Notes: a model not told the origin generated them from the sequence alone. Positions 4,117 through 4,411 are shown, numbered from the stretch's first letter. The stretch is 4,411 bases of DNA from Escherichia coli (GCF_003334385.1 NZ_QOWN01000086.1), one strand, 5' to 3'. Translations and numbers: made by a program.

Positions 4117-4146
4117 GTAAGCGTTAACGGAGTGCCGTATTGACGC
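4117..4146 (-). repeat. Candidate terminal inverted repeat (right end) of an IS66-family element
   Basis: Sequence GTAAGCGTTAACGGAGTGCCGTATTGACGC begins with the GTAA typical of IS66-family termini and lies directly 3' of the IS66-type tnpC stop (4147-4149). It coincides with the return from AT-rich to ~50% GC DNA. The partner repeat is outside the window, so this is unconfirmed. Confidence 0.4.
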
Positions 4147-4356
4147 TTATTTATTGGTGAGTACTACATTCCATGGCAGGAGTTCGTCAACACGGTTGGA
4201 AGGCCATTCCGGCAGTATACTCAGGATATGGCGCAGATACGCTTCCGGATCTATACCGTTCAGTCGGCAGGTGCCGATCAGTCCGTACAACAGTGCTCCA
4301 CGCTCGCCACCGTGATCGCTGCCGAAGAACACATAGATGGTATGACCTTTATATAC
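4147..4356 (-). pseudogene. IS66-family transposase (TnpC), C-terminal ~68-codon remnant
   Basis: Minus-strand translation VYKGHTIYVFFGSDHGGERGALLYGLIGTCRLNGIDPEAYLRHILSILPEWPSNRVDELLPWNVVLTNK* matches the conserved IS66 TnpC C-terminus (…LFAGSD.GGERAA..YSLI.T.KLN.V.P.A.L..VL..I……LLPWN…). The frame is closed upstream by a stop at 4357-4359, so only the tail survives. Confidence 0.7.
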
Positions 4357-4395
4357 TCACTATAGCATTGGTGGGATATTCCAGAGGAGGTCATT

Positions 4396-4411
4396 ATGCA
4401 TTCGGAAAATA
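4396..4411 (+). CDS. 5' end of an unidentified gene running off the window (MHSEN...)
   Basis: Canonical Shine-Dalgarno GGAGG at 4386-4390, 5 nt before ATG at 4396-4398. Only five codons are in the window, so identity is unknown. Confidence 0.25.

What the first reader, a model, noticed from the sequence alone, without database searches (positions are those of the whole stretch)
4117..4411. Truncated IS66 end abutting a new gene start with a strong ribosome-binding site
The IS66-type tnpC frame is cut off at 4357-4359, and 27 bp later a canonical GGAGG plus ATG (4386-4398) starts an ORF on the opposite strand that leaves the window. The IS66 copy was therefore truncated by insertion or deletion of whatever carries this gene, possibly another mobile element.
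Basis: seen in the sequence. Interest (0 to 1): 0.35.

Follow-up and report, generated by a model that had tools for sequence, protein, structure and literature searches.

The report
ISEc45 inserted inside an IS66 transposase gene
The end of the window is where one known jumping gene (ISEc45, an RNA-guided IS110/IS1111-type insertion sequence) has landed at its usual site inside the transposase gene of another (IS66); this nested arrangement is seen in hundreds of E. coli genomes and is ordinary.

Summary
An IS66-family end starts at 4117 (GTAAGCG repeat) and the C-terminal 62 codons of its TnpC read on the minus strand. IS66 homology stops at 4334-4336. GGAGG (4386-4390) and ATG (4396) follow on the plus strand.

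Near-identical contigs (2-4 mismatches over the 4411 bases) show that this ATG opens a 377-aa ORF. It scores 279.9 bits against NCBIfam "IS110 family RNA-guided transposase" (cut-off 140) and is 373/377 identical to the ISEc45 transposase.

The new DNA is a complete 1446-bp ISEc45-like element, and IS66 resumes immediately after it. IS66 is therefore interrupted here, not truncated. A real truncation lies about 930 bp further on.

The same junction occurs in 743 of 5426 complete E. coli genomes. ISEc45 copies are 97.4-99.9% identical, while the IS66 flanks they sit in are only 61-96% identical. The position is always the same: the Asn-Tyr codons of the TnpC motif GRKNY(V/L)FFGS. This indicates repeated site-specific insertion.

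The element's 253-nt 3' non-coding region folds into loops complementary to the target and to its own ends. Homologous loops in Paracoccus and Rhizobium relatives match their own flanks. This fits the published bridge/seek-RNA mechanism.

Verdict: a known element of a known kind. Low interest.

The parts
4117..4146 (-). Terminal inverted repeat and non-coding end of an IS66-family element (GTAAGCGTTAACGGAGTGCCGTATTGACGC...).
   Evidence: The same GTAAGCG... end, with unrelated DNA upstream, is seen in L001-L006 and L016. It is 92-96% identical to annotated IS66 elements.
4147..4334 (-). 3' part of IS66 tnpC: the last 62 codons (the Tyr codon 4333-4335 includes the first core base) plus the stop at 4147-4149. 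Translation: YVFFGSDHGGERGALLYGLIGTCRLNGIDPEAYLRHILSILPEWPSNRVDELLPWNVVLTNK*.
   Evidence: ORF list. NCBIfam transpos_IS66 matches profile positions 348-385 of 387, E = 1.8e-8. Annotated as IS66 family transposase in matching records.
4335..4336 (.). Core dinucleotide AG, present both in the uninterrupted IS66 target (CACAT-AG-TTTTT type) and at the left end of the insert. It marks the insertion point between the Asn and Tyr codons of the GKKN|YVFFGS motif.
   Evidence: Intact targets are L006 CATAA-AG-TTTTTC and L005 CACGT-AA-TTTTTC. Occupied sites are compared. AG is repeated at the right junction in L008.
4335..4341 (+). 7-bp left terminal extension of the ISEc45-like element (AGATGGT).
   Evidence: Boundaries come from occupied versus intact sites. 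The 7-bp left and 3-bp right extensions are the IS1111-family rule (PMC11187229).
4342..4352 (+). Left subterminal inverted repeat (ATGACCTTTAT). Its partner at the right end is AAAGGCCAT, followed by AAG (L008 12537-12548).
   Evidence: In E. coli ISEc45 the two arms, ATGACCTTT and AAAGGTCAT, are perfect.
4341..4346 (+). Candidate -10 hexamer (TATGAC) of the promoter that would form when the ends join in a circle: TTGACA in the right end, 17 nt, then TATGAC. This is inferred, not shown.
   Evidence: Read from the sequence. The geometry is the same in the Paracoccus relative (TTGACT-17-CATGAT) and the Rhizobium relative (TTGCAA-17-TATGTT). No sigma-70-like promoter is found in 4050-4411 in the integrated state.
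4357..4359 (-). In-frame stop (TGA on the minus strand) that closes the TnpC frame upstream. It lies inside the ISEc45 left end and is not the junction.
4386..4390 (+). Ribosome-binding site GGAGG of the ISEc45 transposase gene.
   Evidence: It is conserved in L001-L003 and L008, 5 nt before the annotated start codon.
4396..4411 (+). First 16 bases (MHSEN...) of the 377-aa DEDD transposase gene of the ISEc45-like element. The gene continues beyond the window.
   Evidence: In L008 the ORF is 11163-12296 and carries PF01548 plus PF02371. NCBIfam NF033542 scores 279.9 bits against a cut-off of 140. It is 373/377 identical to WP_000555401.1 as encoded in L002.

Best explanation
Positions 4335-4411 are the left end of a complete, probably functional, 1446-bp ISEc45-like insertion sequence of the IS110 family, IS1111 group. 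It has inserted, in fixed orientation and without a target duplication, into the tnpC gene of an IS66-family element whose right end occupies 4117-4334.

Shown:
- The ATG at 4396 is the start of the 377-aa DEDD transposase.
- IS66 resumes directly after the insert.
- The insertion point is the same in at least six diverged IS66 relatives. It lies on the strand antisense to tnpC, at ...AAGAACANNN-A(G/A)-TTTTT..., which encodes the Asn-Tyr step of the conserved TnpC motif G(R/K)KNY(V/L)FFGS. This is 12 codons after the AER that I take, from my own knowledge of the family, to hold the catalytic glutamate.

Inferred mechanism, as published for this family:
1. The element excises as a circle whose joined ends create a promoter (TTGACA-17-TATGAC).
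2. That promoter drives the transposase gene and the 253-nt downstream non-coding region.
3. An RNA from that region (bridge or seek RNA) binds the transposase.
4. One internal loop pairs with the target. AAGAAUU pairs with the top strand A(G/A)TTTTT. [quoted passage not shown]
5. A second loop pairs with the element's own ends. AUCGUC pairs with GATGAT/GATGGT at the left end, and AUAAGAG pairs with the right end plus core.

Consequence: the IS66 transposase is split and inactivated.
For: Identity of the gene and the element:
- Contigs L007-L011 match the window with 2-4 mismatches and extend it. The ORF from 4396 is 377 aa with DEDD_Tnp_IS110 and Transposase_20 domains.
- NF033542 "IS110 family RNA-guided transposase" scores 279.9 bits against a cut-off of 140.
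- The protein is 99% identical to the ISEc45 transposase. The element is 97.4-98.1% identical in DNA to six E. coli ISEc45 copies.
- RefSeq annotates the matching gene as "IS110-like element ISEc45 family transposase".

Interruption rather than truncation:
- IS66 resumes after the insert in L008.
- L002 holds a whole IS66 with its 8-bp duplication ATTTATAT around the composite.

Site specificity:
- The junction is found in 743 of 5426 E. coli genomes.
- The position and orientation are identical in six IS66 variants.
- ISEc45 copies are 97.4-99.9% identical while their 200-bp IS66 flanks are 61-96% identical. For example, L014 against L016 gives 99.9% for the element and 64-66% for the flanks.
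- Intact targets L005 and L006 define a 1447-bp insert with no duplication beyond the core.

Family layout:
- 7-bp and 3-bp terminal extensions, a 9-11-bp subterminal repeat, a 61-nt left end and a 253-nt 3' non-coding region.
- This matches the IS1111 description in PMC11187229.
- The supplementary table of PMC11208160 lists ISEc45 as IS1111 group with the bridge RNA in the right end.

RNA guides:
- The MFE fold puts GUAAAAGAAUU and CACGUAGAAA on the two sides of one internal loop.
- At the homologous loop, the Rhizobium relative has CGGACCCU, an 8/8 complement of its own core plus right flank AGGGTCCG. The Paracoccus relative has CCUGUU, the complement of AACAGG.
- In the cross-comparison the diagonal values are 7, 6 and 8, against 2-5 off the diagonal.
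- The right-end guide covaries: CAUAAGAG with CATAAG-AG, and CAUGAGAG with CATGAG-AG.
- The order, top-strand complement first and then bottom-strand match, is the IS1111 order reported in PMC11187229.
Against: - Nothing beyond 4411 is in the window itself. The extension rests on near-identical contigs, not on the same molecule.
- The transposase is 377 aa, longer than the 330-350 aa quoted for typical IS1111-family proteins.
- The subterminal repeat is only 9-11 bp, and 8/9 in the window's variant.
- The left-target guide is weakly supported. CACGUAG matches ISEc43-type targets perfectly but has 1-2 mismatches with CAGGT and CATAA targets. In the Paracoccus and Rhizobium relatives only UUAG matches.
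- The right-target pairing in ISEc45 needs two G-U/T wobbles.
- The ends of the two alphaproteobacterial relatives were set by analogy, not from empty sites.
- The candidate -10 (TATGAC) lacks the usual final T.
- Rfam 15 has no model that hits this region.
- No RNA, circle or transposition data exist for ISEc45 in the papers searched.
Confidence: 0.9

Rival explanations
1. A single ancient IS66::ISEc45 composite arose once by chance and then spread by horizontal transfer, or by IS66 transposition with TnpC supplied in trans. On this reading the shared junction reflects common descent, not target specificity.
For: The composite in L002 carries an intact 8-bp IS66 target duplication, so a composite could in principle move as a unit. 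Many of the junction hits are near-identical to one another.
Against: The IS66 flanks of different copies differ by up to 39% while the ISEc45 inside them differs by 0.1-2.6%. The hosts are distinct named IS66 members: ISEc43, ISEc23-like and ISEc22. The insertion point is the same codon step in all of them. Descent from one event would give flanks at least as similar as the insert.
Confidence: 0.04
2. IS66 is truly truncated here by a deletion or an unrelated rearrangement, and the ORF starting at 4396 is an ordinary host or plasmid gene with a strong ribosome-binding site.
For: Within the window alone, only 16 bases of the ORF are visible, and nothing identifies it.
Against: Extended contigs show an IS110-family transposase gene, both ends of the element, and resumption of IS66 tnpC exactly where it was broken.
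Confidence: 0.01
3. The insertion is site-specific but the site is read by the transposase protein alone, as with classical site-specific recombinases. The complementarities in the 3' non-coding region would then be coincidental, or a by-product of the element carrying copies of its own end sequences.
For: The guide matches are short (6-8 nt), partly need wobble pairs, and were found by inspection. The left-target guide tolerates several mismatches. No experiment on ISEc45 was found.
Against: Three relatives with unrelated right flanks each carry the complement of their own flank at the homologous loop. By my rough estimate, the chance of the 6-nt and 8-nt matches at pre-specified loops is about 1e-6. 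RNA dependence has been shown experimentally for five members of these families (PMC11187229) and for IS621 (PMC11208160).
Confidence: 0.05

Closest known systems
ISEc45 (ISfinder name; RefSeq 'IS110-like element ISEc45 family transposase', WP_000555401.1)
   Same: The transposase is 373/377 identical. The DNA is 97.4-98.1% identical over the whole element. The ends, the 3' non-coding region, the target and the orientation are all the same.
   Different: There are about 39 substitutions or indels per 1.45 kb. These include G for A at 4340, T for C at 4395, one mismatch in the right repeat arm, and CAUAUAG instead of CACGUAG in the candidate left-target guide. This makes it an isoform, not a new element.
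ISEc11, ISKpn4 and ISPa11 (IS1111 family, seekRNA shown experimentally; PMC11187229)
   Same: Shared features are the subterminal inverted repeats with 7-bp and 3-bp extensions, the long non-coding region downstream of tnp, the absence of a target duplication, a -35 element in the right end, and guide order with the top-strand complement before the bottom-strand match (searches compared with 36, 58, 59).
   Different: The transposase is longer (377 aa against 330-350 aa) and the repeat is shorter. The target is a coding motif inside another IS rather than a short chromosomal sequence, an attC site or a REP. No experimental data exist for ISEc45.
[quoted passage not shown]
   Same: It is an RNA-guided DEDD element whose natural target is a conserved coding stretch of another IS family's transposase gene. 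It is the direct precedent for an IS that targets another IS.
   Different: ISEc21 has its non-coding region upstream and the reverse guide order, and it targets IS3 rather than IS66.
IS621 bridge RNA system (PMC11208160, PMC11208158)
   Same: Both have two internal loops, each with one guide for the bottom strand and one for the top strand, all including a core dinucleotide present in both target and donor. Here the core is AG.
   Different: IS621 encodes the RNA in the left end, has the core CT, a roughly 326-aa recombinase and REP-like targets. The order of guides within the loops is reversed relative to ISEc45.

Membership tests
IS110 family (DEDD transposase elements) | The transposase has an N-terminal DEDD/RuvC-like domain (PF01548) and a C-terminal PF02371 domain. 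| tested here: met
   The L008 ORF that starts at window 4396 carries PF01548 and PF02371. NF033542 scores 279.9 bits against a cut-off of 140. Only 16 nt of the gene lie in the window.
IS110 family (DEDD transposase elements) | Insertion is site-specific and orientation-specific, with no target-site duplication. | tested here: met
   Six IS66 variants carry the insert at the same position and in the same orientation. The comparison of intact and occupied sites shows only the shared core AG/AA.
IS1111 group | Subterminal inverted repeats (usually 11-13 bp) with terminal extensions of 7 (or 6) bp on the left and 3 bp on the right. | tested here: met
   The layout is AGATGAT | ATGACCTTT(AT) ... 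(AC)AAAGGTCAT | AAG. The repeat is 9 bp perfect, or 10/11, which is at the short end of the range, and 8/9 in the window's variant.
IS1111 group | The long non-coding region lies downstream of tnp and the left end is short. | tested here: met
   There are 61 nt before the ATG and 252-253 nt after the stop. PMC11208160 supplementary table: ISEc45, RE, IS1111.
IS1111 group | Transposase length of 330-350 aa (PMC11187229). | tested here: not met
   The protein is 377 aa. The same paper notes IS110-type clades with downstream non-coding regions, so exact subgroup placement is uncertain.
Bridge/seek-RNA-guided elements | The RNA from the non-coding region has loops complementary to both strands of the target and to the element's ends. 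| tested here: met
   Shown by predicted fold and complementarity in ISEc45 and in two relatives with different flanks. The support is computational only, and the left-target guide is weak.
Bridge/seek-RNA-guided elements | The RNA is expressed, binds the transposase, and is required for circle formation and insertion. | not testable with these tools
   This requires RNA-seq, co-purification and transposition assays.
ISEc45 (isoform level) | Near-identity to the reference element. The ISfinder convention, from my own knowledge, is more than 95% amino-acid or more than 90% DNA identity. | tested here: met
   99% amino-acid identity and 97.4-98.1% DNA identity. This is measured against RefSeq-annotated ISEc45 copies, not against the ISfinder entry itself.
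IS66 family (the interrupted host element) | Terminal repeat beginning GTAAGCG, and a TnpC whose C-terminus carries the ...GRKN.LF.GS... motif. | tested here: met
   The repeat starts at 4117. The TnpC C-terminus gives a partial NF033517 hit, E = 1.8e-8. It is 92-96% identical in DNA to annotated IS66 elements.
IS66 family (the interrupted host element) | Complete tnpA-tnpB-tnpC element with an 8-bp target duplication. | tested here: not met
   In the source-like contig L008 the IS66 stops at 13475, about 930 bp beyond the ISEc45 insert, next to ISL3-family genes. tnpA, tnpB and the other end are absent.

The most novel reading that the evidence does not exclude
ISEc45 may be a dedicated "parasite of a parasite". 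On this reading its guide RNA is tuned to a coding motif (G-R/K-K-N-Y-x-F-F-G-S) that IS66-family transposases cannot easily change. It would then spread wherever IS66 spreads and inactivate its transposase.

I found no explicit description of this ISEc45-IS66 target relationship in the open-access papers searched. The 2-bp AG scar seen in a frameshifted ISEc43 (L004) could be a footprint of imprecise ISEc45 loss. If so, ISEc45 would damage IS66 copies even after it leaves.
Probability: 0.35. Interest if true: 0.3.

Novelty: already known. Interest (0 to 1): 0.13.

Why it matters
There is little new biology here. The result explains a confusing junction as a routine nested insertion of a catalogued element, and it corrects "truncated" to "interrupted".

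It has modest practical value:
- It gives a precise target for ISEc45: the strand antisense to tnpC, AAGAACANNN-AG/AA-TTTTT.
- It gives candidate guide segments that could be tested directly.
- It adds a second natural example, after ISEc21 and IS3, of an RNA-guided IS that homes to a conserved codon stretch of another IS family's transposase.

For annotation, a split IS66 tnpC flanking an ISEc45 should be read as one interrupted gene, not as two pseudogene fragments of separate origin.

Tried and rejected
- Rfam 15 search of the window (gathering threshold) and of the ISEc45 region of L002 (E up to 1): no hits. No curated bridge-RNA family covers this element.
- Megablast of the whole window and of 2590-4411 against complete E. 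coli genomes and PLSDB plasmids: no record holds the window as a whole. The source context was instead recovered by exact look-up of the AraC-type protein.
- First reconstruction of the empty site by removing 1444 bp: this gave an in-frame TnpC with an extra Ser. Real intact copies (L005, L006) showed the insert is 1447 bp, so the in-frame result was a coincidence. A core model with the right end finishing at GGTCATA was rejected because it needs targets 2 nt longer than intact IS66.
- Plain search for exact matches of 6 nt or more between the non-coding region and the target: the number found was about what chance would give, and uninformative. Only junction-aware and structure-aware comparison was useful.
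- GTTCTT/TTCTTT in the non-coding region just after the basal stem: it matches both target arms. I judged this a likely consequence of the target's own partial palindrome and did not pursue it.
- More distant relatives L020 (E. coli, 47% identity) and L021 (Sinorhizobium): these were fragmentary or lacked recognisable motifs and were dropped.
- Promoter scan of 4050-4411: nothing found in the integrated state.
- Literature searches for ISEc45 and for IS1111 with IS66: only resistance-genomics mentions, with no target analysis.

Full report
**What is in the window**

- On the minus strand there is an ORF at 4147-4332. Its product, (Y)VFFGSDHGGERGALLYGLIGTCRLNGIDPEAYLRHILSILPEWPSNRVDELLPWNVVLTNK, is the C-terminus of an IS66-family TnpC. 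NCBIfam transpos_IS66 matches profile positions 348-385 of 387 with E = 1.8e-8.
- The element's terminal repeat begins exactly at 4117 (GTAAGCG...). Eight other loci share the sequence from that base onward and have unrelated DNA before it.
- On the plus strand, GGAGG is at 4386-4390 and ATG at 4396-4398.

**What the new gene is**

Megablast of 4000-4411 against plasmids and complete E. coli genomes shows thousands of records aligning from about 4107-4117 to 4411, that is, across the junction. The gene under the right-hand part is annotated "IS110-like element ISEc45 family transposase".

The window as a whole is not in those two collections. An exact look-up of the AraC-type protein encoded at 3234-4067 found it on assembled contigs that match the window with 2-4 mismatches over all 4411 bases (L007-L011).

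In these contigs the ATG at 4396 opens a 377-aa ORF with the Pfam domains DEDD_Tnp_IS110 and Transposase_20. It scores 279.9 bits against NCBIfam NF033542, "IS110 family RNA-guided transposase", whose cut-off is 140. It is 373/377 identical to the ISEc45 transposase encoded in E. coli locus L002.

**Interrupted, not truncated**

- In L008 the ISEc45-like element runs for 1446 bp and ends ...TTGACAAAGGCCATAAG. The next bases, AGTTTTTCTTTCCGAGACAGAC..., are IS66 tnpC again.
- The whole IS66-ISEc45-IS66 stretch of L008 is 95.6% identical over 2610 bp to E. coli locus L002.
- L002 holds a full-length ISEc43-type IS66 split by ISEc45 and bounded by the 8-bp duplication ATTTATAT.
- In the window's own context, IS66 does end about 930 bp after the insert, next to ISL3-family genes. 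The copy is truncated, but elsewhere.

**The exact junction**

Intact IS66 genes read ...GAAGAACACGT-AA-TTTTTCTTTCC... (L005, ISEc47) and ...AAAGAACATAA-AG-TTTTTCTTTCC... (L006, ISEc23).

Occupied sites read LT-AGATGAT ATGACCTTT ... AAAGGTCAT AAG-(AG/AA)TTTTT.

My first attempt removed 1444 bp and happened to give an in-frame product with an extra serine. The intact copies showed the insert is 1447 bp, or 1446 bp in the window's variant.

In window coordinates, IS66-only sequence ends at 4334. AG at 4335-4336 is shared by target and insert. On the tnpC strand the break falls between AAC (Asn) and TAT (Tyr) of G-K/R-K-N-Y-V/L-F-F-G-S. So the stop at 4357-4359 lies inside ISEc45, about 22 bp beyond the true junction.

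**Is the site specific?**

- A 152-bp probe centred on the junction (4260-4411) is covered at 80% or more in 771 records from 743 of 5426 complete E. coli genomes.
- In the evenly spaced sample of that ranking, every hit containing the ISEc45 left end also contained at least about 14-20 nt of the IS66 flank.
- Six occupied loci represent different IS66 relatives. Their left flanks end CACAT, CACGT, CATAA or CAGGT. Their right flanks continue CTTTCC, CTTCCC, GCGGCC or ATTTCC after the shared A(G/A)TTTTT.
- Pairwise, ISEc45 copies are 97.4-99.9% identical, while the 200-bp IS66 flanks on either side are 61-96% identical. The extreme case is L014 against L016: 99.9% for the insert and 64-66% for the flanks.
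- One inherited composite cannot produce that pattern. Repeated insertion at the homologous site can.

**Family features**

The element has these features:
- a 7-bp left extension and a 3-bp right extension;
- a 9-11-bp subterminal inverted repeat;
- 61 nt before the start codon and 252-253 nt after the stop.

These are the IS1111-group features described by Siddiquee et al. (PMC11187229). The exceptions are that the transposase (377 aa) is longer than their quoted 330-350 aa and the repeat is at the short end of the range. The supplementary table of Durrant et al. (PMC11208160) lists ISEc45 as IS1111 group with the predicted bridge RNA in the right end.

**Mechanism (inferred)**

For this family the published mechanism has three parts:
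- a circular intermediate;
- a promoter created at the joined ends;
- an RNA from the non-coding region whose loops pair with both strands of the target and of the element's ends.

Fold and target loop:
- The ISEc45 non-coding region folds, at z = -2.0 to -2.6 against shuffles, into a long basal stem (nt 3-21 with 157-172).
- The stem encloses a stem-loop whose internal loop has GUAAAAGAAUU on its 5' side and CACGUAGAAA on its 3' side.
- AAGAAUU can pair with the top strand A(G/A)TTTTT, that is, the core plus the only right-flank bases conserved among targets. This uses one or two wobble pairs.
- CACGUAG equals the left target plus core of ISEc43-type sites.
- The window's variant has CAUAUAG, which pairs with its own CACAT-AG using one wobble.

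Donor loop:
- A small hairpin is flanked by AUCGUC, which pairs with GATGAT/GATGGT of the left end.
- On the other side is AUAAGAG, which equals the right end ATAAG plus the core AG.

Test in relatives:
- I tested this layout on two relatives at about 50% protein identity, from Paracoccus yeei (L018) and Rhizobium sp. (L019).
- At the homologous loop, the Rhizobium relative has CGGACCCU, a perfect 8-nt complement of its own core plus right flank AGGGTCCG. The Paracoccus relative has CCUGUU, complementary to AACAGG next to its core.
- The right-end guide covaries: CAUAAGAG with CATAAG-AG, and CAUGAGAG with CATGAG-AG.
- In a cross-comparison the own-flank matches are 7, 6 and 8 nt, against 2-5 nt for foreign flanks.
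- The order of guides, top-strand complement first, is the IS1111 order.

Weak points:
- The left-target guide has 1-2 mismatches with some natural targets, and only UUAG matches in the two relatives.
- The ends of the relatives were set by analogy.
- The candidate -10 (TATGAC, 4341-4346) lacks the final T. The same -35/17-nt/-10 geometry does recur in both relatives.
- No promoter-like site is found in 4050-4411 in the integrated state. This fits expression from the circle junction.

**Comparison with what is known**

- The element is an isoform of ISEc45, a catalogued IS.
- The principle of an RNA-guided DEDD element that homes to a conserved coding stretch of another IS family's transposase has been shown for ISEc21 and IS3-family genes.
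- I found no paper in the searchable library that states the ISEc45 target. I cannot consult ISfinder, so this may simply be recorded there.

**Verdict**

This is a routine nested IS insertion by a known element of a mechanistically understood family. Interest is low. The most novel reading left open is that ISEc45 is a specialised IS66-targeting element, with a possible 2-bp scar on loss. That would be a modest addition to the field.

Noticed in passing
L004 2679-2720 (NZ_CP023061.1, ISEc43 annotated 'frameshifted'): This otherwise uninterrupted IS66 copy reads CACGT-AG-AA-TTTTTC at the ISEc45 site. That is 2 nt (AG) more than intact ISEc47 (CACGT-AA-TTTTTC), and it causes the frameshift. It equals an occupied AA-core site (L002) with exactly 1445 bp removed. 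It may be a footprint of imprecise ISEc45 loss, but this is unexplained, and its frequency was not counted.
   Followed up: partly
window 3234-4067 (+), with surrounding AT-rich DNA at about 2600-4110: A 277-aa AraC-family regulator. Its best NCBIfam hits (HilD, GadX and similar) are all below their cut-offs. In the longer contigs it sits next to chaperone-usher fimbrial genes (PapD, PapC/usher) and about 8 kb from a dispersin-domain gene and an FtsX-type permease. This suggests an AggR/Rns-like virulence regulon on an enteroaggregative-type island or plasmid. The region has no match at roughly 85% identity or more in complete E. coli genomes or PLSDB, although the exact protein is indexed in 279 assembly blocks.
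   Followed up: partly
window 573-2380: An IS91-family element on the minus strand, about 90% identical to copies on E. coli plasmids. It includes the 327-aa Y2_Tnp ORF at 804-1787 and the 115-aa ORF at 1945-2292. A stop near 1790-1800 seems to separate the N-terminal part, so it may be a pseudogene.
   Followed up: no
window 2348-2587 (+): A 79-aa ORF with a weak rve_3 (integrase core C-terminus) hit. It is probably a remnant of an IS3-family OrfB.
   Followed up: no
window 1-300 (-) and 480-590 (+): By eye these translate to fragments resembling an IS630-type DDE transposase and the N-terminus of an IS256-type transposase. The whole window would then be a patchwork of at least six IS remnants around one regulator gene. 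This was not checked with tools.
   Followed up: no
L008 13476-18340: Beyond the split IS66, the source-like contig carries ISL3-family, IS4/DDE_Tnp_1-type and IS3-family genes, themselves nested (an ISL3 gene split by a DDE_Tnp_1 gene). This is where the IS66 copy is truly truncated.
   Followed up: partly
L002 / L008 3' non-coding region, just after the basal stem (CAGGUUCUUUAAUCC): GUUCUU complements the conserved left target arm AAGAAC, and the overlapping UUCUUU equals the right arm TTCTTT. This could be an extra guide, or merely reflect the target's partial palindrome.
   Followed up: no
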